Assembly: GCA_000004985.1 (NCBI GenBank)
Contig: GG738851.1
Source of the DNA: Naegleria gruberi
Taxonomy: Eukaryota
Reading direction: 5' to 3' (one strand)
DNA: 64,000 nucleotides
Position numbers and translations under genes: made by a program. The number at the start of each line of letters is the position of its first letter. Position 1 is the stretch's first letter. Of this stretch, positions 2,297 to 55,752 are shown piece after piece. The notes under the pieces are model-generated. The model was not told the origin of the DNA. It saw nothing but the letters and a program-made list of their open reading frames with translations, and did no database searches.

Positions 2297-3814
2297 ATGA
2301 CGCGAATACTCTTATCCTATCAACCCAAAAATCCATTCTTTACTCTCATCATGATGGTTAATAAGTAAGTGGACACTTATAGGTCAAAATACAAAAGACC
2401 AAAATTTATTAAAACTACTTACTCTGAATCTATTTCATGATATAGGAATAACTATACGGATGAGCCCTGTACGGAACCTTATTTTCTAGCTGTAGATCCT
2501 CAGAAAATCACTCCTAATCATTTGGATTTTAGTAATGGATTGTTTGTGAGTGAGATTAAGGAACAATTATATTTACATAGTGAGGAACCTTGTTGGTTTG
2601 GATTGACAGCAAAGGGGAAAATTGCAATCATGATCGATGTTCATAAGAGTGCTGATTTTAATAGGACATTTCTTGATAAATGTAAGAGAATTAGTTTGGC
2701 ATCGTTTGAAACAGTTGAGGAGACTCTTGGAGTTGATGATTCCGTTGATTTGAGGTCGGAATCTGCTGCCTCTCCTGGAGCTCTCTCAACAACAGATTCT
2801 GTAACAACTGATAGACCTAAAAAATATGAGAGGAGAAAGGAATTAAAAGTGGACCATTTAACCAAAATGAAAAATGATGTCAAGCTGCTAATTGTGAAGG
2901 ATTACTTACATTCAAATTTGAATCCTATTGAGTATCTTCAAAAAGTTGCAATCAAGATTCGTCACTTGGATGGATTCAATTTATTAATTGGAGATTTTTC
3001 GAAGGGAATGTATTTCTATTCAAATAAGGATAAGGAAAAATGTATTTACGAATTGGTGCAAGGAGAGTATGCTCTGGGGCCTGTTCCAGGTCTTGACACC
3101 TGTACAGAAGTGTTTGAATGTGTAGATAGAGCAAAGAGAGAGTTTTTAAAAATTGTAAATTCTATTGGAGGCCATGAACTGGAGGAAGTTCCAACAGATC
3201 CAGATTTATTGAACTTTTGGATTGATGAGAAAAAGGCCACTGTCAAGGAAAAACGAAAACAACTCTCCGAGACATCAACCATAAGGTCACTCTTTCAAAT
3301 TTGTGAGAGAGAGGATAAGCTCATCATTGATGACAATGACATGGATCAGTATCTTGCATTAACCCCAACTTTGAAAGATCTATTGAGCTCAATGTTTATT
3401 AATCACCCTGTTTTTGGAACTGAACTTAACATGCTAATGATTTTGCATGATAACAATCAATTCCCAACAGATGATGAAATCATCAAGTCGTTTGGTAAGA
3501 AAGTTGCAACCTTCACCAAAAAGAAGAAAGGCAGTTTGCTAAGAACTAGCTCTGGTAACATTGTACCAACAAGACCAATTTCTATTGAAACTCCTGAAAA
3601 GCCTCCTCCACCAATGTTTAGTATTGATAGAAAGAAGTACTTGTGCAATTTATACATTAGAAAATACGATCAAGAATTGTTGACCCAAGTCAGGGAAGGT
3701 CATTTCGATAAAGATGACTTTTGGGAAACAATCATTCCAAAGAGAGGGCAGATTGAAGATACATTCTACAAATCAATTATGCAATATTTTTATGTGGATA
3801 CAAATGTCGACTAA
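2297..3814 (+). CDS. hypothetical protein; join(2297..2364,2446..3814)
   Basis: A short first exon reads MTRILLSYQPKNPFFTLIMMVNK. An 81-nt phase-2 intron (GTAAGT...TATAG) precedes the main 430-aa ORF. No domain is recognised. Confidence 0.5.
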
Positions 3815-4154
3815 GATATTAATTCATTTTGTAAGATCATCATAGATCCACTTGATCATTCTTCTCTGATTTCATGCATTCCAAATTGATGGGCGTATGT
3901 CAATTCTACAATACTCAAACTTCCCAACTGGGTCAAGGTAAGCAATACCAGAGTCAAATGACTGATTTTTCCATTTCAACCATGGTATTATAGCTTGTAT
4001 TTCCCAACTAGTAATTCAATAAATATAGAATAGTATTTATTGAAGAGATTAATTGTTTCGAAAAGTAACTCCTTTAATCCATAATTCAACCTTATTGGAA
4101 ACCTTACTTGATAAATACTAAAATGAGCAAATATTAAAGTACATTTCAAAAAAA

Positions 4155-6048
4155 ATGAATAAGCCACAAAAGAGAAACAAATTGCAAGAAATTTTAAAAG
4201 CGTGCGAAATACTTCAAGACGACTCGGATAAGATCCAATTGGTGGTCGAATACATCACCAAACAATTAAATATCAATGTGAAGAAAACACAATATCCGTG
4301 GATTGAAAAAGAGGAAACCCTAAAGTTCTTATTTGCTCTAAACATTACACCAAAAGAAACTCATCCACTTCCCATATGTGAATCCACCTTAGATATTCTT
4401 GTGGATTGCTACTACCAATTTATAGATACCGATAGCATCAAAGATTTATCAGAGTCATTCGAAAAGGCAGCAAAGCTCCTTTCCGAGAGTACGAAACAAA
4501 GAGTTCGGGCTCACCACATATTTTCATTAGTATCAAGTTTGCAAAGATTAGATTCAATGCAAAGAAAAGATCTGGGTGAAATAGTCGTTTCCAGTGCCAT
4601 TTCTTCTTTATTGGATGTCATTTGTTGCATTAAGGGCCATGTCCAAAATGGGTAAGTTGGAGTTGATTTTTGATTGTTATTGGAATTTAGTTTTAGTGAT
4701 CAACGAATAGATATACACTTGGATGATAGTGACTTGCCAATCTTTCATGTTCAAAGTGATGGCACTATTTCAACTGATTTTTCAACAATTCCTTATTTGT
4801 TGAGAGAAGATAAAAGTTTTGATAAACCTGAGCACTGGGAAAATGATTTTACCGATGCTTTCAAATTGATATTATCCATGAAAAGCACTTTAAGGTTTGT
4901 TGTTTTTCCTTAGATAGTAAGTTACATTGTTATTCGAAAGAGAACAATTATTTAAAGAAAAAGCAAAGAAGGAGGACAGATTGAAATACAACAAAGTATT
5001 AGGATTGAATTTCCTCAAAAGCAGGGCACATTTATTCTTGTTGGAAGTTGATTTGATTGAGGAAAATCAAGAAATCCTTCCACAATACTTCATTTCTCAT
5101 CGCCCATATTCCGTGGATATAGCCAATCTCATTGCAATGTGGCTCGCAATACTCAGATTTGCCAATGAGTATGCACCAAACAGGCCATTATATGCCAATG
5201 AAAATTATGGACCTATCCAGAGAACACCTTATACTAACTTGTCTCAAATTGAAGAGATAGTTTCCAATAGTTCTAGCTCAAGAGAAACTAAATTGCATAG
5301 TTCAACAATGAAGGTTTGTAAAAAGGTTATCAATTGTCACGAGAGCAAGGAAGAGCAACGATTTACATACAAAGTATTGAGTTCAACATTTTTAAAGAAA
5401 GTTACCAAAGATGAAATGAGCATTATTGTCAAATTGGTTGAGTTGGACAATTTCTCTCCGTATCTTCCAAGAATTCTCAATGTCTATTCGAATATAGTTG
5501 AATTTGAAGAATTAGAATGTTTGCCAAATCTCACCGAAGAGACCCTCATTGATTTAGTGATCGATATTTCTAAAGCTTTACACTTTTTGCATGAAAATCA
5601 AATAATACACAGAGATGTTAAACCTGCTAATATTATGACACGAAATTTTAATCACCACTGCAGAGAACAATATGTTTTAATCGATTTTGGTTTGAGTTTT
5701 TCCTATTCCAAGAAGGATGATCATTACATTGACAACAAAACTGGTAAGATTGTAACTGCCAATCTTGGAACTAGTTATTATAAGGCTCCAGAAGTGAATG
5801 AAGAAAGAAACTATCATGAAAAGATTGATATTTATTCGTTAGGTACTTCAATTATTCATTTATTAATGAATTCACAAAAAGTGCAAGTGACAGCAAACTG
5901 GAAACAAGAAGCTAAAGATTTGATATGGCAATTTTTAGAGTTTCAACAGTTGGTTTTACGAATGGTAGATGTTGATCCTAACAATAGACCAAGTGCTTTG
6001 AAAGTTACCGAATGTATGACAGATATTAGACATAATCTTTCAAATTGA
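4155..6048 (+). CDS. protein kinase domain protein; join(4155..4651,4691..4894,4941..6048)
   Basis: Catalytic-loop and activation-segment motifs are present: HRDVKPANIM, IDFGLSF, GTSYYKAPEV, DIYSLG. The glycine loop is degenerate. Two phase-2 introns of 39 and 46 nt (GTAAGT...TTTAG and GTTTGT...GAAAG) join three ORF-track pieces in frame. Confidence 0.7.
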
Positions 6049-10250: not shown

Positions 10251-10628
10251 ATTTCCTTTTTTGGAACTCATTTAACTTTTAATTTTATGATGAAATTATG
10301 AATGTTTTATTTTATTATTATTCATGATGTGAAACATCATGTTGAATTCTGTTCATTATTTTTAATTCATGATGTGAAACATCATGTTGAATTATTAACA
10401 AATGTTGTTCTTCAATTTTTCATTGAATGTTGGAAATATTGGAAAGTTGGAAATAAAAGTTGGAAGTTAGGTAACGGGTTATGGAATTACCTAATGTGAA
10501 ATACATTGTAACAGAATTAACAAGAATAAAAGCAAAATCCTACATAGAGTTGGAGAACGGGAAATGAAATTCCCAAATTGAAATTGAGAAACAACTATTC
10601 ATTTCACAATAATTCATACTATCAAAAT
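10251..10628. mobile_element. 378-bp insertion within the tRNA-Gly gene, flanked by an 8-bp target-site duplication (GAATTGAA at 10243-10250 and 10629-10636); non-autonomous element, family unknown
   Basis: The tRNA is reconstituted exactly by removing 10251-10628 together with one copy of the 8-bp repeat. The insert is AT-rich with no ORF and no clear TIR. It contains a tandem duplication with a hairpin. Confidence 0.6.
10320..10393. repeat. two copies of a 29-bp unit (ATTCATGATGTGAAACATCATGTTGAATT) spaced 45 bp apart; each contains the palindrome CATGATG-TGAAACA-TCATG
   Basis: Exact direct repeat seen in the sequence. The downstream GTTGGAA-rich triplet lies at 10429-10470. Confidence 0.7.
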
Positions 10629-11014
10629 GAATTGAACCCGGGTCACGGCGATGGCAACGCCGTATTCTACCACTAAACCATCGACGCTTCTTATTAGTCT
10701 ATCAAATATTATAATAATAGATAGTGTGATTTAATAAACTGTCATCAATGAAGTGTGAACAAATGAATGGAGCGCCACATTACCAAAAAAAAATATCAAC
10801 CCTAAACGGTTTATCGTTTCAACATGTAGCCAAATTTTTCAAGAACAAAAAGCAATAATTTATCACCAACAAGAATACTTGAGAATGATAAATCAAGTTA
10901 ATAGTAATAATGAAAATAACTCTTCTGATGATCACAAAAAGCCAAGAAAAACCAAGTTTCAAGAAATTCTAGAAGCACCGAAAGGATGTACAGAATACAA
11001 TCCTCATCAATCTT

Positions 11015-30524: not shown

Positions 30525-31172
30525 TTTTTTAATTTTCTAATTTAAATTATTTTGTGATGATGATTTAATTTCTAAAAATAACAATTTCATACTGATTGAA
30601 GAATGAGATTCAAATAATGAACGTGAATTATTAATTTTCGTGATGATTTGATTCAAACTCAAATATCCATATGATAATGATGATAATTTTTCAATCTCTT
30701 CCATATTTATTATCATCAAATATTAAGCAAACATTCATTAAATTGAAACACTTGATGGAATATTAGTATAATTCATAAATCTTAATTCAATAAAGTCAAA
30801 CAATAGAACTCAGGTTGTTATCTCTGATTTGCGGAATATTTTCCAATCTAGAAAGACTTACCTCCTCAAAAAAGCAAATCCCCAGCTGTCCAAATTGAGA
30901 ACCTGCCCTTACTGTTTAATATCATTGATGGCCAAACAAAACCAAGCAATGTCCAATTTATTGTGAAGCTGAAATTCCCGCCCCAATAATAAACCTAAAA
31001 AACCAACAATATCATCATCAACAGGTGTTGCACACTTAGTTTTTTCGCATTGTTAACTATCAACGTTGCTTAGTGCTTATTCCACTTCACGAAATTCATC
31101 ATCATTAACGACAATTATTAATATATTGAAATATATCATACAGTGCTAGTAGTAGGCTATTAGGCAGTTACA

Positions 31173-33522
31173 ATGTCGAGGACAACATCAAGAACATCAT
31201 CTAAGGGAAATATGGTAACACCATTTTCCATTGATACAATTGAAGAACCGGAATCAACTCCCAATTCATCAGACAAGAAATCGAGATGTTGGATGTGCTC
31301 TCCAAAGAAAGTCCTCAGCTTGAGGAATATCATCATTACACTGATTTCATCATCGATCATTATTATTGCCTTCATTGTGTGGATTATTGGATTCACTGCT
31401 TCCAATTCCTCAACAAAGATACTCAGTGATAAATTAAAAGACAGTTCAACCGAGAGAATTGTAGTAATGATTGAGGGAATGTTTACACAGGCACAGGAAT
31501 TGGCTCTCTCCTATCGATATTTCTATGATAAACAAACGAATCATATGAGGAATTTTCTGGAGGATCGATCTTTGTATGAATATTCAGTGAAGAATCTCTT
31601 GTTTTCATCACTGATAACGAGGCAAGGTTTGATTAATTCTGTGAATTTTGTCTTTGAGAGTGGACATGTTGTGGGATGGGAATGTAACCTTAATGCCTGT
31701 GATTATTTCATTTCGAAACAGGATGATTTGAGGCTGATGGCTTATAATTATGATTTTGAATTGGAAACATTGGCCAACTCGACAACATATGAAGTACCAA
31801 ACTTTAATGCCAGTATCATTATTCCAACCTATAGCATTGTAACCAACGCAGCAAAAGTGGATAAATCTCTGAGGAAAACTGGCATGTTTTTTCCAATTAG
31901 TAGACACGTTCTCGTATCCAGCATGTATGTCACAAGTGTTGCCATTCCCTATTATGGATTAGATGGAAACATGTTAGGAACCTCAAATGTTGTCTTTTAC
32001 GTCGACACCTTAAATGCCAAAGTTAGAAGTGCGAATCCATCTATTGGAGGATACATTCTAGTTCTAGAAGATAGTGGTGTGATTGTAGCTCACTCATTTG
32101 CCAATCTCACAGCCAACATGGAGAAACCATGTTATTTGGGAGGAAATCTATTGGTTCAAACTTTGTGTTCATATTTATTACCTGATCAGAATAGCTCTTC
32201 AATATCTGATCGATTTGGAAATACTCCCTCGAGTAAGTTTAGTTTGGAAGGGTTTTCTGTCCAGAGAAAGGAGCTCAAATTTCCAGGTATTACATGGCAT
32301 GTCTTGATTGCAATTCCAGATGAGGAAATATTGGGAGACATTCTGATTCAATCGTATAATACTGTGTGGATTTCTGCTCTTGTTCTGGTTGCAGCAATAA
32401 TATTCTCTGTCATTACAACATTTTCACTGTTCAGAACTTTATCCATGTTGGCTCGTTGCTTTACAGATATTCAAAATTTGGATTTGGATGCACCAACCAT
32501 TGTCAAAGCAACATCAATTCTAACTGCAGTCTATGAATTACGTGAGCTCCAAAACAATTTTAAGAGCATGATTGTCACATTGAAATCCATTAGAAAGTTT
32601 GTCCCAGTTCAAATTATTAGGAAAATTCTAATAACTGGGAGGGAGGCATCTCTAGGTATTGAGGATGCTGATGCAACCATTTTCTTTTTGGATATTGCTG
32701 GGTTTACCACCATGTCAGAAAAGATGGAGCCGAAAGCTCTGGTCGATTTGGCATCCAGTGTATTCGAAAGTTGTTCTCAATCTATTAACAAGCACAATGG
32801 TGTCATTGACAAATTCATTGGTGATGCTGTCATGGCACTGTGGAATGTTCCGACAAGAACCAAAGACCACGAATATCATGCCCTCCAATCAGCCATTGAA
32901 ATTCAATTGGAAATGGAAATGAAAAATGTACCAGTTCGTATTGGAATACATTCAGGAAGAGTAAAGGCTGGAAATATTGGAAGTGTGGATCGATTCAGTT
33001 TTAGTGTTTTGGGAGATTGTCCTAACGTTGCTTCCAGATTTGAGGGCGCCAACAAGGTTCGTAAATATATAATTATATTTTGCATTACTAATAATAATGT
33101 CGTAGGTCTACATGAGTAAGATCATATGTGGATCAAGTACAATAGAAGTTGCATTGCTGAGCGAGGAAAGATTAGCCATCAAGGATCCATCCTTGAAGAG
33201 AATTGTAAATAGAAGACTCGACAAGTTGAAACTCATTGGAAAGGAACATCCAGTTCTTGCCTATCAGATATTCTTGAGTGAAAATCCCAAACATACCAAT
33301 GGATTGGATAGCAGAGATTTGAAAATGTATGAGAAGGGATATGACTATCTCGTTGAAAAGCAATATAAGGAAGCTCTTTCAATATTCTATACTTTGGGAG
33401 ACAAGGCACCGAATGATATGGTCATTAGAAGAAAGATTAATCTGTGCAGATCTCTTGTTGAAAATGCTGGTATTGTTGATGGAAAGAAATTTGAAGGATT
33501 TGTTGAAATTACTGGCAAGTAA
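31173..33522 (+). CDS. receptor-type class III adenylyl/guanylyl cyclase with a large extracellular sensor domain; join(31173..33056,33106..33522)
   Basis: TM1 lies near residue 55, followed by an ectodomain of about 330 aa and TM2. Cyclase core: ATIFFLDIAGFTTMSE...DKFIGDAVMALW...RIGIHSG. The domain continues in exon 2 (KIICGSSTIEVALLSE...LIGKEHPVLAYQIF). The 49-nt intron (GTTCGT...CGTAG) is phase 0. Confidence 0.8.
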
Positions 33523-36288: not shown

Positions 36289-38515
36289 ATGAGGTATTGG
36301 AATAGTTTACTGTTAGTGCCAAGCTTACTCTGGTTTCTTCACATGTGTGCATCACATATACACGCACAAATTCCAACAAACATTGCAATAGTTGGAGGAA
36401 ACATACCTTGTAAGTGTCATAAACACATCTATTTTACCATGTTAATTTCCATTTCGTACAGCTGCCTCTGGTTACAATTTAGTTTTTATTGATGCGTTTA
36501 GATCTACAAGAAAAGTAAGTTATCATTATGCATGCAATTATTAATCACAAAATCAATAGTATGGTTTAGCAAAAACTCCATGGGTTGCTCTTTCAGACGA
36601 TCAATACACAACAGATGGATGGCCAATTGGTACATCTGCAGGAACTGTCCTTTTCACAGAGAACCCATCAGGATCTTTGAGTGGTACTTATTATTTTCAA
36701 GGTGATGGAGAATTGACATTAGGATTGATCTCTTCCCCTTATTGTTCAATTATAAACGTAACTCAGGCATTTGGAAAGACAACTGGTTACGTGGTTGTGG
36801 GAAGTAGTGCAACTATATTAATGCTAAATTTCAAACAAGCAACCAACTCAACGTTTAGAAATCTACGTTTGATTCGTCCAGGTTTTACTATTGAGGATGC
36901 AGATACACAAATATTTCATCCTGCCTTTTTAGAGACGATCAAGGATTTGAAAATTTTGAGAATGATGGATTGGTTGGGAACCAACGCAAATCCAGATACT
37001 GTTTGGGGCAATAGATCATTAGTTACTGATACAACCTAAAGTTCTTCAGGAGTTCCATATGAAATAATAATTGAGTTGGCAAATAGAACGAACAAGTCAA
37101 TTTGGGTCAATATTCCAGCTATGGTGGATGGGGATTATATAAATCAGATGGCAAAATTGTTCTATCAAAAGCTCAGTTCAACAACAGTGGTTTATATAGA
37201 ATATTCGAATGAATTATGGAATTCAGCTTTTTCTCAAGCAAAGTATAATTGGGCTGCAGCTACCAACATGGTGAATGTGTTAAACCAAACCTTCCTGAAC
37301 TATGACAATGTCAATAATGTTTACACATGGGCTTTTAGAAGAACTGGTTATATGGCTTACAGAATTTCAGAAATATTTGCTGCAGAGTTTGGGGAAAGCA
37401 AACGAAATAACCAATTCAGAGTTGTTTTAGCAGGTCAAGGAGCAAATTCATACATTGTTATGCAAGGTATTACTCTAATCAACAAGTTTTTTGGTCCTCC
37501 ATCCAAGTACTTATATGCCATTGCTTCAGCTCCATACTATATTCTTGATAATAACTATTCAGGAGTCATGAATACCAGTGATGTGCTCGATGAATTGGCC
37601 TATCAAGCAAGAATAAGTCCACAATCCTACGGTTATGCCACTTACGTTTGTTTATCTAAATTCTGGGGATTGAAACATTTTGCCTATGAAGGAGGGCCAG
37701 ATACATATGGATCGTACAATGTTGACTCAAAGAGAGCAGCTCATTTAGATCCAAGAATGAAACAAATCACAATTGACTTCCTAACTACTTGGTTTAGTTA
37801 CGGATTTGATGCATTTTTATACTATACAACAGGGTATGGGACATACAGTAGCAGTACTGGAGCTTGGGCATGGGCAGAGACTATGAATGATTCCATTCAT
37901 CCTAAGAAGGATGGTGTCATTCACATGATTAATAATCCAAATGTTCCATACAATACAAGTGTTTTTAGATACTTGGAAGGAAGTGCTTCACAAACAACAC
38001 AACTTAGTATTCCTGCCATTAAACATCAATTAGCAGGTACTACCTACACAACCACTTTTATTCCTTATTCATCTGTAGGAATTAATCAAACTCTTTACTA
38101 TCCCTTTGTTGCTGGTAAACGAGGAATCTATTCAGTTAGTGTTGAAACTCAATATGCAAAACAGGGAGGAAGTATTGGAATTTATTGGAATAATGATAAA
38201 ATGGGCTCTGTATTATGCAATTCGAAAGTATTTAACTTTTCACTTCCACTCAATACCAGTTCGGTTATTGAGAAGGGTATTTCTGTAGTAACATTATATA
38301 TAGAATCTGACAAATCTTATAGTATCAATACTGTTAATATTACACTGGTTACAGAGGTTCAAGACTCAACCCCAACAACGCCAACAACCCCAACAGTGTC
38401 TTCCTCACAACTTGGTCAAACCTCAACTGTTTCGAATAGAACTGTGGTTTCAGAAGGATCAAATAATGGTCATAATTTCCTTATTAACTTTCAAATTATA
38501 ATTGTAATATTATGA
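36289..38515 (+). CDS. secreted clan GH-A-type glycoside hydrolase, possibly GPI-anchored; exons 36289..36409, 36462..36514 and 36560..38515, with an in-frame TAA at 37037-37039
   Basis: Signal peptide MRYWNSLLLVPSLLWFL. Two short introns (52 and 45 nt, GTAAGT donors) are resolved in frame. The TIM-barrel motifs read ILRMMDWLGTNAN and VVYIEYSNELWN. A T/P-rich linker precedes a hydrophobic C-terminus. A single TAA interrupts the frame between ...VTDTT and SSSGVPYEII..., and no GT-AG intron of compatible phase is available. Confidence 0.6.
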
Positions 38516-38619
38516 TGTGTAGTCATTGCTAATCTAATGGTTTCTTTGTCCAATTAATTTTCTGTTCTGAACTTGCGAATATTTTTAGATGTGAACTTGG
38601 TTTACAATTTATAAAAAAA

Positions 38620-39351
38620 ATGTCACAAGAACAAGTGCAGGAGCACACAGAAGGTATTATTGTGGAGGTGGAGAATACAGAAACTCTTTATGAAAATGTT
38701 CAACTCTCTGTTGATATTGCACCATATAATCAAAGTGTTGATGTTGATATTGCTGGTGCTTGTGCAGTTTGCTCAATAACATTTGCTATTAATGCATCTC
38801 TTACCAACAATCCCGAACGGAGAGTGACTTTGGAGAGTGTTTTGGATTTGTCAATTTCGAATGAACAATTCTCAACAATAGGAAATGGAACTCATCCGAG
38901 GGCTTGTGTTGAAATTGGTAAATTATTTGGAATTGTGGAATGGGGTTATTTTGGAGAGAAAACAAATGGCTTTGAATTGATAAGAAGTCAACTCAAAAAA
39001 GGATTACCTGTTATTGTGGGAGTGAAAATGAATCTATTAACATTACCTTCTGATATTGGGCATGCAGTTGTAATTACTGGAATTGATGAGAGGAATCGGG
39101 TGACAATTGCAGATTCATTCTCTAGAATTTCTACAAGACAAGGGAAACGTAAACAATACCCATTTGGAAAACCTATTTGGGTTGCAAAACCAGGTTTTTA
39201 TGTTGCTGAGTGGCCAGAATTTGATGCCTCTTGGAATACTAAGGATGACTATATGTGTATGAGCTATGAGGGCGATCCAGCATTTGTTTCATTCAATCCA
39301 AATGAGATAGGCTATAGATTTTGGATGACTATTGATCCTAGTAATATTTGA
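38620..39351 (+). CDS. papain-fold cysteine peptidase-like protein (C39-like)
   Basis: The candidate Cys (GACAVCSITFAI) and His (GHAVVITGID) are spaced as in C39/BtrH-like peptidases. Weak call. Confidence 0.4.
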   Translation: MSQEQVQEHTEGIIVEVENTETLYENVQLSVDIAPYNQSVDVDIAGACAVCSITFAINASLTNNPERRVTLESVLDLSISNEQFSTIGNGTHPRACVEIGKLFGIVEWGYFGEKTNGFELIRSQLKKGLPVIVGVKMNLLTLPSDIGHAVVITGIDERNRVTIADSFSRISTRQGKRKQYPFGKPIWVAKPGFYVAEWPEFDASWNTKDDYMCMSYEGDPAFVSFNPNEIGYRFWMTIDPSNI

Positions 39352-39352
39352 T

Positions 39353-42103
39353 TTATTTTGTTTCCAATAACCTAGGAGAGGTTATAACATTCAGATTGGA
39401 TATTTGTTTTGATTGTAATAATTTGGAGTCACTGTCTGAAAATTTTTTAAGATGATGATGAGCATCTTCTACAGAGAGGAGACGAGGAGAGACAGTGGTA
39501 ACACTGCTTCTTCTGGGTGAAGTTGGACCACCATCGGTTATTTGTGGTACTGGTAAGGTGAAATTCGAGAAACTCAAACGTTTTGGTGAGAGCTTTTCCC
39601 ACAATCCTCCAATAAAAGAGTCAGCTGTTAGTCTATTAGGTGTTCCTCCTGTTTGTGAATTTGATCGTTTTGGACAAATTAATACACTAAGTGTTGCAAA
39701 TTCCTTATCTGCCAATTCAGAAATGTTCTTCTTTTTTCCTCTTGGAGTTGTTGGCGGAGAGGTTACACTTTCAGAAGGAATGACCAAAGTAGCTTCATCG
39801 TTATGAACTGAAAGACGTGGTGTCAGAGAGGTATCAGTTCCTGAGGAGGTACTTGTGCAGCCACTGTCCATGCTTATAGATCTAGAAGGGGATTTCTCCT
39901 TCTTTTCAAATAATAATTCCAACTTGAGTAAATCAAATCCAATAATTTCTTCTTGCAACCTATTAAACAGGACTGTATCAATTGGTAGAGAAAGGTATTG
40001 ATTTGCATACGATTGGCAAGTTTCAATTTGTTGGTGAATTCTATAGATTTGTCCAAGTTTTACCATGTTGAAGAATGATTTGTCTCTGTGCTCAGTATTT
40101 TGGATTGTCGTACTGTGAATAGATTCAATTTGTGTCATTTCTGTCATGAATAGTCCAAAGTATGGTATGATTGGAGTATATCTTGTGAATTGAGCCACTC
40201 TTAGATTTTCAAACTTTTTACGAATCATGAATAAACTATCCAAAGTGGTAAGATAATCTTGATATTTTTGCTCAACCTTACTCCAGACATTTTTCAATCT
40301 ACTGACACACTGAGAAGTTAAAGATCCATAGATTGCCATTAAAGAGTTGTAGTTTCCCAGCTTTTCCAAGTGTTGACAAATATCCAAAAATTTCTCAATA
40401 CATGATGCTCTTTCCTGCAAGCTTAAATTCTTGTAAAAGATACAAAATTTTACAAAAATTCCGAGCTTGTTAAAGTAGTCAATGTAGAGTGATAGTGATG
40501 GGCATTGTGAGGTAGAATATTGTAAATCTGTTTTGTAGAGTGGTGTAGTTTGGCAATTAACATTAGCATATCTTTCCAAAGTGAGCTCCTTGTGAATATT
40601 AACATTTCTCAACAGCAGGGCATCCATAGCTGTTAAGTGTTGTGCAATAATTTCTGGGTTGGCAATACTCAACACCAGGGGAGATTTAATGAGACTAAAC
40701 TCATCAAGGTATGAAGCAATAGGTTTGATTATTGACTTGTCGAGTTCTATTTTCTTGTTTGAAGGATGATTAGGTGTTGAAGATGCCTCAAAGGAACCTT
40801 CAAAAGATTTTAAAAATTCACTCCATGATGTGAAGGTATTAGGATACGACCACGACCTAAACTCATTAGCATAATGTATGCACGAGTTTTTGAAATTTTC
40901 CTGATTAATCTTAACTCCAACCAATTCGGATAGTGTGCAATATTCATCAAAGGAATCCAAATCTCTAGAATAATATCTTAAAAAGTATTCAATAAAGGAC
41001 TTTCTAAGTTCACAATCTTCAAGGGAAAGTAATGAATTAACAAATAAATGAGTATTTGGAAAAATGTATAGATGCAAATCGAATAATACTCTTCTGATAT
41101 TATCATTTGTTTCTGATAATTTGAACAAACCAGTGAGAGTAATGGATTTCAAATGCTCTAGTTCAAAATTTGAATTTTCTACCGACACACTATCCTTCAA
41201 TATTAATTCCTTTGAAATATCACCACTTTCATGGCATGACCAATTCACACAATTTGCACTTTCCACATTTGTATTTCTAATAGAAGAAACACATTTCGGA
41301 ATATGGTGATTTCGAATATGTATCAATAATTCAGAGTTGGCAACATTTTGCTCACCCAAATAGTCATCACATCCCATTATTGTTGGCTTCTTTGAGTCTT
41401 GTTGAATCATTGAGAGAAGTAAACTAGTGCTAGGAACGGTCTGATAATTTACCAATCCACCAATATCCTCCCTATTAATCAGAGGAGATGAAGAGGGTGA
41501 CGAATTGAATTTTCTGTGATATTTTCCATTATTTTCCTGTTGTTGTTGATGTTGAGGTGTAGGAAATTGATAATTATCATGTCCTCCACCCTCCATAAAT
41601 CTCGTCGTATCAATTCTATATTGATCATCATTATCAATACTCATTACTTGTTGTGATGAAACTCTGTTTTTCAATAGTCGACCGGAATCATCTTCATTCC
41701 TTGAAAAACTCCCAGCTATACTTCCATCATTTGATTGGCCATCCATCACAGAGGAAATTCCATCTTCATCATCTCCAACACGAATAGCAATACCATCACG
41801 ATGACTATGAATCTTCTTCTTGTTATTACTTTTTCTTTTACAGTAAATTTTGATGAACACAAAAACGGCGCCAATTAAAAGCAACACCAAGAAAAAACCG
41901 CCCAAACCTGATGAGAGGGAAATGATGAGAATTTGTTCTAGGTTGTTGCCTGTTGTTGAATTGTTATTGTAAGAAGTTGTTGTATGTACAATGGCAGCAG
42001 ATGATGCTTTGATATTATTTGAATTCGGAGAGTTGGTTTCCTCCATTGAAGATAGAGAGTTGCTACTGATGAATGAATCATCACCGAAACATATTGTCAT
42101 CAT
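39353..42103 (-). CDS. membrane-anchored Ras guanine-nucleotide exchange factor (CDC25-homology domain)
   Basis: N-terminal TM (GGFFLVLLLIGAVFVFIKIY). RasGEF catalytic domain with TPIIPYFGLFMTEMTQIE (GxPYxG motif) and NLSLQERASCIEKFLDI. Confidence 0.8.
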   Translation of the reverse strand: MMTICFGDDSFISSNSLSSMEETNSPNSNNIKASSAAIVHTTTSYNNNSTTGNNLEQILIISLSSGLGGFFLVLLLIGAVFVFIKIYCKRKSNNKKKIHSHRDGIAIRVGDDEDGISSVMDGQSNDGSIAGSFSRNEDDSGRLLKNRVSSQQVMSIDNDDQYRIDTTRFMEGGGHDNYQFPTPQHQQQQENNGKYHRKFNSSPSSSPLINREDIGGLVNYQTVPSTSLLLSMIQQDSKKPTIMGCDDYLGEQNVANSELLIHIRNHHIPKCVSSIRNTNVESANCVNWSCHESGDISKELILKDSVSVENSNFELEHLKSITLTGLFKLSETNDNIRRVLFDLHLYIFPNTHLFVNSLLSLEDCELRKSFIEYFLRYYSRDLDSFDEYCTLSELVGVKINQENFKNSCIHYANEFRSWSYPNTFTSWSEFLKSFEGSFEASSTPNHPSNKKIELDKSIIKPIASYLDEFSLIKSPLVLSIANPEIIAQHLTAMDALLLRNVNIHKELTLERYANVNCQTTPLYKTDLQYSTSQCPSLSLYIDYFNKLGIFVKFCIFYKNLSLQERASCIEKFLDICQHLEKLGNYNSLMAIYGSLTSQCVSRLKNVWSKVEQKYQDYLTTLDSLFMIRKKFENLRVAQFTRYTPIIPYFGLFMTEMTQIESIHSTTIQNTEHRDKSFFNMVKLGQIYRIHQQIETCQSYANQYLSLPIDTVLFNRLQEEIIGFDLLKLELLFEKKEKSPSRSISMDSGCTSTSSGTDTSLTPRLSVHNDEATLVIPSESVTSPPTTPRGKKKNISELADKEFATLSVLICPKRSNSQTGGTPNRLTADSFIGGLWEKLSPKRLSFSNFTLPVPQITDGGPTSPRRSSVTTVSPRLLSVEDAHHHLKKFSDSDSKLLQSKQISNLNVITSPRLLETK

Positions 42104-55678: not shown

Positions 55679-55752
55679 GCAGCGATAGATCAGTTGGTTA
55701 GATCGTAAGCCTAACACGCTTAAGGTCGCGGGTTCAAGCCCCGCTCGCTGTA
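55679..55752 (+). tRNA. tRNA-Val(AAC)
   Basis: GCAGCGA-TA-GATC-AGTTGGTTA-GATC-G-TAAGC-CTAACAC-GCTTA-AGGTC-GCGGG-TTCAAGC-CCCGC-TCGCTGT-A. Clover-leaf pairing holds with a G1:U72 wobble. A and B boxes are present. No CCA is encoded. Confidence 0.9.

What the first reader, a model, noticed from the sequence alone, without database searches (positions are those of the whole stretch)
37022..37048. Single in-frame TAA interrupting an otherwise intact ~700-aa secreted glycoside hydrolase gene
Exon 3 (from 36560) and the 479-aa ORF from 37040 are in the same reading frame, separated only by TAA at 37037-37039 (...NRSLVTDTT * SSSGVPYEIIIELANRTNKSIWVN...). Conserved GH-A motifs lie on both sides. No GT-AG intron of compatible length or phase spans the stop. 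The alternatives are a very recent nonsense mutation (young pseudogene), a sequencing error, or programmed stop-codon readthrough. TAA, TAG and TGA all terminate other genes here, so a variant genetic code is unlikely.
Basis: seen in the sequence. Interest (0 to 1): 0.5.

Follow-up and report, generated by a model that had tools for sequence, protein, structure and literature searches.

The report
One stop codon breaks amoeba glycosidase gene
A single TAA stop codon, sitting where relatives have a tyrosine, interrupts an otherwise intact sugar-cleaving enzyme gene of the amoeba Naegleria gruberi; this is most likely an ordinary, very recent knockout mutation (or a base-calling error), not a special decoding mechanism.

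Summary
The window is Naegleria gruberi NEG-M DNA. A three-exon gene (36289-38515, + strand, 709 codons) carries one in-frame TAA at 37037-37039 (codon 218). It is the only stop in the 64-kb window with at least 100 open codons on both sides (159 and 491).

Homology runs straight across the stop with no gap. The aligned residue is Tyr in five relatives, Trp in one and Phe in the N. gruberi paralog, so one TAY-to-TAA change explains it.

Four other readings fail:
- No credible intron spans the stop.
- The code is standard; TAA ends 18 of 29 long ORFs.
- The context ACC-UAA-AGU is not a known leaky context, and there is no downstream RNA structure.
- No homolog has a stop at this position.

The gene shows no decay. 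It keeps 83 of 86 family-conserved residues and has not evolved faster than its intact paralog, so any inactivation is very recent (roughly under 1% neutral divergence).

The protein has a clan GH-A fold, with a CBM6/35-like domain at the C-terminal end. It has no Pfam family, and all relatives outside Naegleria are bacterial. The public model (XP_002681108.1) covers only the C-terminal 415 residues.

These tools cannot separate a real nonsense allele from a consensus error. Verdict: ordinary, low interest.

The parts
36289..36409 (+). Exon 1: start codon, predicted signal peptide (MRYWNSLLLVPSLLWFLHMCASHIHA) and the start of the mature protein. It ends in codon phase 1.
   Evidence: Sequence. 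The spliced product aligns with paralog P0002 (..AQIPxNxAxxGGN..). The signal peptide is inferred from the hydrophobic N-terminus.
36410..36461 (+). Intron 1 (52 nt, GTAAGT...CAG).
   Evidence: Without splicing the frame runs into a stop (ORF 36289-36492). With splicing the sequence continues into the NLVFIDA motif shared with P0002. This intron is absent from both N. lovaniensis homologs.
36462..36514 (+). Exon 2 (SASGYNLVFIDAFRSTRK).
36515..36559 (+). Intron 2 (45 nt, GTAAGT...TAG). Its position is conserved in Naegleria homologs.
   Evidence: Both N. lovaniensis genes have an intron at the same ..CRK|FG.. position.
36560..38515 (+). Exon 3: 652 codons including the internal TAA and the terminal TGA (38513-38515).
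   Evidence: The tblastn alignment to both N. lovaniensis genes is continuous across the stop.
37037..37039 (+). The in-frame TAA (codon 218 of the 709-codon model). The context is ACC TAA AGT TCT.
   Evidence: The aligned column is Tyr in P0003, P0008, P0009, P0010 and P0013, Trp in N. lovaniensis gene 1, and Phe in P0002.
37211..37213 (+). Codon of Glu276 in the EYSNELWN motif, the inferred clan GH-A acid/base (N-E after strand 4).
   Evidence: N275 and E276 are nearly invariant in alignment A1. The role is inferred from the clan GH-A fold.
37688..37690 (+). Codon of Glu435 in the AYEGGPD motif, the inferred catalytic nucleophile (strand 7).
   Evidence: Y434, E435, G436 and G437 are invariant in A1. 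The role is inferred.
37268..38515 (+). Extent of the public gene model (XP_002681108.1 / NAEGRDRAFT_63683, 415 aa). This truncated model starts after the acid/base motif.
   Evidence: P0001 is 100% identical over 59% of the query.
38009..38359 (+). C-terminal beta-sandwich, CBM6/CBM35-like (approximate limits).
   Evidence: The profile of A1 hits CBM6/CBM35 chains in the PDB at profile positions about 545-666 (E values from 1.9e-15 to 1e-4). Foldseek also hits CBM35 and CBM6.
38360..38512 (+). Ser/Thr/Pro-rich linker and a short hydrophobic C-terminal tail (FLINFQIIIVIL). This is a possible GPI-anchor or membrane-anchor signal.
   Evidence: Sequence. Paralogs end in similar but longer hydrophobic tails. 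The anchor role is inferred.

Best explanation
This is a genuine and very recent nonsense (ochre) substitution. A tyrosine codon (TAT or TAC) at position 218 became TAA in one of the two N. gruberi paralogs of a bacterial-type clan GH-A glycosidase with a CBM6/35-like domain. The allele may be fixed in strain NEG-M, or it may be one haplotype of this heterozygous diploid. Translation would stop after 217 residues. That product would have the signal peptide, the N-terminal beta domain and the first barrel strand, but neither catalytic glutamate. The locus is therefore a null allele, or nascent pseudogene, and its function is probably covered by the intact paralog NAEGRDRAFT_80795. What is shown: the stop, its position at a conserved aromatic (mostly Tyr) column, the absence of any other lesion, and the absence of decay. 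What is inferred: that the base is real in the DNA, that the truncated product is inactive, and that the paralog compensates.
For: - Homology is continuous and gap-free across the stop, at 46-58% identity on both sides.
- The stop column is Tyr in 5 relatives, Trp in 1 and Phe in 1. One third-position transversion from TAY therefore suffices. The gene itself uses TAT 29 times and TAC 18 times.
- TAA followed by A is a normal terminator context here. TAA ends 18 of 29 long ORFs, 7 of them followed by A.
- An intact paralog exists in the same genome (P0002, 703 aa, 56-60% identical), so loss of this copy is tolerable.
- Naegleria is described as a mainly heterozygous diploid (PMC9928731), so null alleles can persist.
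- About 5.5% of random substitutions in this CDS would create a stop, so a single hit of this kind is unremarkable.
Against: There is no positive sign of relaxed constraint. The gene keeps 83 of 86 family-conserved columns, as intact members do. The relative-rate tests against the intact paralog are not significant (77 vs 59, p=0.12; 57 vs 65; 35 vs 32). There is no second lesion in 2130 nt. Under neutrality, the chance of no further disabling hit is already about 0.08 at 1% divergence. Everything is therefore equally compatible with a functional gene plus a wrong base in the consensus. No independent sequence of this locus could be reached.
Confidence: 0.62

Rival explanations
1. Consensus base-call or assembly error. 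The real genome has TAT or TAC (Tyr) at codon 218, and the gene is intact and functional.
For: The gene looks fully functional apart from one base. It has no other stop or frameshift, keeps 83 of 86 conserved columns, and shows no rate acceleration. The change needed is a single third-position base. The assembly is, to my knowledge, a 2010 Sanger draft.
Against: Substitution errors in a multi-fold Sanger consensus are rare, and only about 5% of them would give a stop. In a heterozygous diploid lab strain with an intact paralog, real nonsense alleles are expected to outnumber such errors; this is a prior estimate, not a measurement. The flanking sequence is not a homopolymer or low-complexity run that would provoke errors.
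Confidence: 0.27
2. Programmed recoding: the UAA is decoded as a sense codon and a full-length enzyme is made. The route would be stop-codon readthrough by a near-cognate tRNA (Tyr or Gln), or mRNA editing such as A-to-I giving UGG (Trp).
For: The ORF is perfectly preserved on both sides, and all catalytic residues downstream are intact. One N. lovaniensis homolog has Trp at this column, which is what UAA edited at both A positions would read as.
Against: - UAA is generally the least leaky stop (established knowledge).
- The context ACC-UAA-AGU-UCU matches none of the known leaky motifs (stop-CARYYA, UGA-CUAG).
- The 100 nt downstream fold no better than shuffles (z=0.01).
- No homolog carries a stop here, whereas programmed readthrough sites are conserved as stops.
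- No other gene in the 64-kb window shows such a stop.
- No suppressor tRNA lies in the window.
- The literature search found nothing on UAA readthrough in Naegleria.
Confidence: 0.04
3. An unrecognised, possibly non-canonical, intron removes the TAA from the mRNA.
For: The gene has two very short introns (52 and 45 nt), so short introns do exist here.
Against: Only four in-frame GT..AG candidates of 90 nt or less span the stop. None has the GTAAG donor used by both real introns, and there is no GTAAG anywhere in 36516-37100. The window protein has no extra residues relative to homologs around the stop. Any intron would therefore delete conserved residues such as GVPYE..ELAN.
Confidence: 0.02
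4. A split gene: the two halves are now separate functional genes. One is a 217-aa secreted N-terminal protein. The other is a C-terminal protein started at an internal Met, as in the public 415-aa model.
For: The public annotation treats 37268-38515 as a gene.
Against: The stop falls inside the (beta/alpha)8 barrel, between the first strand and the first helix in the paralog model. The C-terminal part would lack a signal peptide. From the annotated Met it would also lack the N-E acid/base motif (37208-37213). No homolog is split.
Confidence: 0.03
5. Variant genetic code in which TAA is a sense codon.
For: None beyond the stop itself.
Against: TAA terminates 18 of 29 open stretches of 200 or more codons in the window. 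No other long coding frame contains an internal TAA with long open sequence on both sides.
Confidence: 0.01

Closest known systems
Nonsense-disabled duplicated (unprocessed) pseudogene or segregating loss-of-function allele
   Same: One premature stop at a conserved sense position. Introns are retained. An intact paralog exists in the same genome.
   Different: No second lesion and no measurable relaxation of constraint. If real, it is at the very youngest end of the class, and it cannot be told apart from a sequencing error.
Clan GH-A glycoside hydrolases with an accessory beta domain (GH79 heparanase/beta-glucuronidase, GH51 arabinofuranosidase, GH39, GH44)
   Different: Only 9-13% sequence identity. 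No Pfam GH model matches. No PDB sequence match exists for the catalytic domain. It is therefore not a demonstrable member of any of these families, and the substrate is unknown.
CBM6/CBM35 carbohydrate-binding modules
   Same: The C-terminal beta-sandwich of the family profile matches CBM6/35 chains (E values from 1.9e-15 to 1e-4). Several bacterial relatives carry an additional Pfam CBM6 domain (PF03422).
   Different: The Naegleria proteins themselves do not reach any Pfam CBM model. Binding was not tested.
Programmed stop-codon readthrough genes (for example TMV-type UAG-CARYYA, animal UGA-CUAG)
   Same: An in-frame stop with a conserved coding sequence downstream.
   Different: The stop is UAA, no known motif or structure is present, and homologs have a sense codon instead of a conserved stop.

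Membership tests
Clan GH-A glycoside hydrolase | (beta/alpha)8 barrel catalytic domain | tested here: met
Clan GH-A glycoside hydrolase | Acid/base Glu in an Asn-Glu motif after strand 4, and a nucleophile Glu after strand 7 | tested here: met
   N275-E276 (EYSNELWN) is nearly invariant and E435 (AYEGGPD) is invariant in A1. In the P0002 model they follow strands 266-270 and 426-429. Their assignment as catalytic residues is inferred, not superposed.
Clan GH-A glycoside hydrolase | Glycosidase activity | not testable with these tools
   No member of this family has been characterised. There were no literature hits for the accessions.
Any defined sequence family (Pfam GH families, e.g. GH79, GH51, GH5) | Significant match to the family's profile | tested here: not met
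   There were 0 Pfam families at E<=1. The PDB profile search hits only the CBM-like C-terminal domain.
Pseudogene / null allele | Disabling lesion at a position that is a sense codon in intact homologs | tested here: met
   TAA lies at a Tyr/Trp/Phe column, and the alignment is continuous.
Pseudogene / null allele | The lesion is present in the organism's DNA and is not an assembly artefact | not testable with these tools
   No reads and no second N. gruberi assembly were reachable.
Pseudogene / null allele | Relaxed selective constraint or further lesions | tested here: not met
   The gene keeps 83 of 86 conserved columns. The relative-rate tests against the intact paralog are not significant. 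There is no other stop or frameshift. This is expected if the lesion is very young, so it bounds the age rather than excluding the class.
Programmed stop-codon readthrough | Leaky stop and context (UGA or UAG with CARYYA, CUAG or similar) | tested here: not met
   The context is ACC UAA AGU UCU. The comparison with known motifs rests on established knowledge.
Programmed stop-codon readthrough | Stimulatory RNA structure downstream | tested here: not met
   MFE is -16.7 kcal/mol against a shuffle mean of -16.74, z=0.01.
Programmed stop-codon readthrough | Stop codon conserved in orthologs or paralogs | tested here: not met
   All aligned homologs have a sense codon at this column.
Programmed stop-codon readthrough | Full-length protein detected | not testable with these tools
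   No proteomic or ribosome-profiling data were available.
Spliceosomal intron over the stop | GT-AG borders with the local donor consensus, and extra sequence relative to homologs | tested here: not met
   There is no GTAAG donor. Only 4 weak in-frame candidates of 90 nt or less exist. There is no insertion relative to homologs.
Variant nuclear genetic code (TAA = sense) | In-frame TAA frequent in coding regions, and TAA not used as a terminator | tested here: not met
   There is one such site in 64 kb, and TAA ends 18 of 29 long ORFs.

The most novel reading that the evidence does not exclude
The UAA is recoded in vivo, so that N. gruberi makes the full-length surface glycosidase from a gene that looks broken. 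Recoding would be by near-cognate readthrough or by mRNA editing to a Trp or Gln codon. This would be the first case of stop-codon recoding of a nuclear gene in a heterolobosean.
Probability: 0.04. Interest if true: 0.7.

Novelty: new member of a known kind. Interest (0 to 1): 0.12.

Why it matters
The main value is for annotation. The public model NAEGRDRAFT_63683 (415 aa) is the tail of a 709-codon gene disrupted by one stop. It should be flagged as disrupted, or corrected if reads show Tyr.

There are two secondary points. First, the gene belongs to an uncharacterised family with a clan GH-A fold and no Pfam model, otherwise found only in bacteria. It was apparently acquired by Naegleria and duplicated there, which may interest people studying horizontal transfer or amoebal digestion of bacterial polysaccharides. 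Second, if the stop is real, it is a clean example of the earliest stage of paralog loss. Neither point is surprising to a specialist.

Tried and rejected
- **Intron over the stop.** I enumerated all in-frame GT..AG pairs. None is credible.
- **Variant code.** Rejected from stop usage across the window.
- **Readthrough signals.** The context does not match a known leaky motif, the downstream fold is no better than shuffles, the window has no suppressor tRNA, and the literature search found nothing relevant.
- **Independent copies of the locus.** I looked for exact-product matches for P0001, P0002 and the 464-aa and 479-aa versions of the downstream ORF. I also ran a protein-pattern scan and an exact DNA pattern with NNN at the stop against JGI metagenomes. 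All were empty, so the real-versus-error question stays open.
- **Paralog DNA.** It could not be fetched, so no dN/dS was possible. The protein-level relative-rate and conserved-column tests I used instead found no relaxation.
- **Genome paper.** The N. gruberi genome paper (PMID 20211133) is not held, so coverage and heterozygosity figures could not be cited.
- **Accession search.** A literature search for the gene accessions found nothing.
- **Pfam and PDB sequence searches.** They gave no family name for the catalytic domain. Only fold comparison did.

Full report
**What is there.** The window is AT-rich (about 34% GC) eukaryotic DNA. A 415-aa 'predicted protein [Naegleria gruberi]' (P0001 = XP_002681108.1, NAEGRDRAFT_63683) matches the region at 100% identity. 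The window is therefore from the N. gruberi NEG-M assembly.

One frame is open for 652 codons, apart from a single TAA at 37037-37039. The flanking peptide is ...NRSLVTDTT*SSSGVPYEIIIELANRTNK...

The exon structure is:
- exon 1: 36289-36409
- intron 1: 36410-36461 (52 nt, GTAAGT..CAG)
- exon 2: 36462-36514
- intron 2: 36515-36559 (45 nt, GTAAGT..TAG)
- exon 3: 36560-38515, ending in TGA

The spliced conceptual product has 709 codons, with the stop at codon 218.

**Is it more than chance?** Yes. The window has 7607 open stretches across all six frames, with a median of 9 codons. Only 64 reach 100 codons. The TAA at 37037 is the only stop with at least 100 open codons on both sides (159 upstream, 491 downstream). 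Both sides are coding. GC content at the three codon positions is similar upstream and downstream (0.41/0.47/0.26 and 0.39/0.41/0.27).

**Homologs and the codon at this position.** The database search found three kinds of relatives:
- an intact paralog in the same species (P0002, NAEGRDRAFT_80795, 703 aa, 56% identity over 98% of the query)
- a N. lovaniensis protein (P0003, 727 aa, 48%)
- about 20 bacterial or metagenomic proteins at 25-36% identity

Fetching the N. lovaniensis locus (L001) showed a tandem pair. P0003 lies at 3001-5235. A second gene lies at 441-2663 (662 aa). I reconstructed the second gene from its introns.

tblastn of the window protein against L001 runs without interruption or gap across the stop in both genes. 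In a MAFFT alignment of 11 family members, the stop column is:
- Tyr in P0003, P0008, P0009, P0010 and P0013
- Trp in N. lovaniensis gene 1
- Phe in P0002

The window sequence has no extra residues there. The simplest history is one third-position transversion, TAT or TAC to TAA. The gene uses TAT 29 times and TAC 18 times.

**Explanations that fail.**

*Intron.* Only four in-frame GT..AG pairs of 90 nt or less span the stop. None has the GTAAG donor of the two real introns. Each would delete conserved residues, because there is no insertion relative to homologs.

*Variant code.* TAA terminates 18 of the 29 open stretches of 200 or more codons in the window. TGA terminates 6 and TAG 5. TAA-A is a common terminator context among them.

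*Programmed readthrough.*
- The context ACC-UAA-AGU-UCU matches none of the known leaky contexts, and UAA is the tightest stop (established knowledge).
- The 100 nt from the stop onward fold no better than shuffles (z=0.01).
- No homolog has a stop at this column.
- No suppressor tRNA lies in the window.
- A full-text search found nothing on stop-codon readthrough in Naegleria.

*Split gene.* In the AF2 model of the paralog, the stop falls between the first barrel strand (186-188) and the first helix (222-232). A downstream product would lack the signal peptide. From the annotated Met (37268) it would also lack the acid/base motif at 37208-37213.

**State of the gene.** Apart from the stop, the gene is indistinguishable from a functional one.
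- It keeps 83 of the 86 columns that are at least 90% conserved in the other members. The three exceptions are conservative: M for F, I for L, and Y for W. Intact members score 80-83 of 83-86 on the same test.
- Identity to relatives is the same upstream and downstream of the stop (0.55 and 0.58 to P0002).
- Its closest relative is the N. gruberi paralog (59-60% identity). Tajima relative-rate tests against that paralog are not significant with three outgroups (77 vs 59, p=0.12; 57 vs 65; 35 vs 32).
- In this CDS, 5.5% of possible substitutions create a stop. I assumed frameshifting indels at about 7% of the substitution rate. The probability of no further disabling hit is then 0.28 at 0.5% neutral divergence, 0.08 at 1% and 0.006 at 2%.

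If the stop is real, it is very young.

**What the gene encodes.** No Pfam family matches. A profile of the family finds only CBM6/CBM35 modules in the PDB, for the C-terminal domain.

The nearly invariant N275-E276 and the invariant E435 fit the clan's acid/base and nucleophile; this is an inference. The protein cannot be assigned to a defined GH family, and its substrate is unknown. All relatives outside Naegleria are bacterial, which suggests horizontal acquisition followed by duplication in Naegleria.

**Real mutation or error?** I could not reach any independent sequence of the locus.
- Exact-product look-ups for P0001, P0002 and two alternative versions of the downstream ORF returned nothing.
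- The JGI metagenome scans, by protein pattern and by exact DNA with NNN at the stop, were empty.
- Each of the three Naegleria protein clusters has a single member.

Naegleria is described as a mainly heterozygous diploid (PMC9928731), and an intact paralog exists, so a real null allele is plausible. A single wrong base in a draft consensus would look identical. On priors I put:
- a real nonsense allele (fixed or heterozygous) at about 0.6
- a consensus error at about 0.27
- all recoding, splicing and split-gene readings together below 0.1

**Verdict.** The finding is an ordinary single nonsense codon at a Tyr position in a duplicated gene. It is useful for correcting the annotation of NAEGRDRAFT_63683 but is not biologically surprising. 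Read pile-ups at 37037-37039 would settle the one open question.

Noticed in passing
window 37268-38515 (+): The public gene model XP_002681108.1 / NAEGRDRAFT_63683 (415 aa) covers only the tail of the 709-codon gene. It starts downstream of the conserved N-E acid/base motif (37208-37213), so it is a truncated model of a disrupted gene.
   Followed up: yes
window 36289-38515; proteins P0004-P0025: The family has no Pfam model. Outside Naegleria, every relative found is bacterial or metagenomic (for example Gemmataceae and Methylococcaceae MAGs, some with CBM6, PA14 or Big_3_5 add-ons). This suggests bacterial-to-Naegleria gene transfer followed by duplication. No N. fowleri homolog appeared in the search.
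   Followed up: partly
L001 441-2663 and 3001-5235 (N. lovaniensis PYSW02000039.1): N. lovaniensis carries two family members in tandem. The upstream one (662 aa) lacks the Ser/Thr-rich linker and hydrophobic tail, and has Trp at the column of the window's stop. In N. gruberi the two paralogs lie on different scaffolds.
   Followed up: partly
window 36410-36461 and 36515-36559: The position of intron 2 (..CRK|FG..) is conserved in both N. lovaniensis homologs. Intron 1 is absent from both, so it is either a gain in the N. gruberi lineage or a loss in N. lovaniensis. Both window introns are very short (52 and 45 nt).
   Followed up: partly
window 38513-38554: After the terminal TGA the frame stays open for 13 more codons, which encode a hydrophobic stretch (CVVIANLMVSLSN). 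The window protein's hydrophobic tail (12 aa) is shorter than those of its paralogs (17-19 aa). This is probably chance, since the median open stretch is 9 codons, but a second, C-terminal nonsense change cannot be excluded.
   Followed up: no
window 38620-39351 (+): The 243-aa ORF immediately downstream matches Peptidase_C39_2 (PF13529, E 2.4e-7), a mostly bacterial family. It sits next to the bacterial-type glycosidase.
   Followed up: no
window 39353-42103 (-) and 31164-33119 (+): The neighbouring genes are a 916-aa RasGEF-domain protein and a 651-aa open stretch with an adenylate/guanylate cyclase domain plus a weak Cache domain match.
   Followed up: no
window 10617-10688 (-) and 55679-55752 (+): There are two tRNA genes, tRNA-Gly(GCC) and tRNA-Val(AAC). 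Neither is a suppressor.
   Followed up: yes
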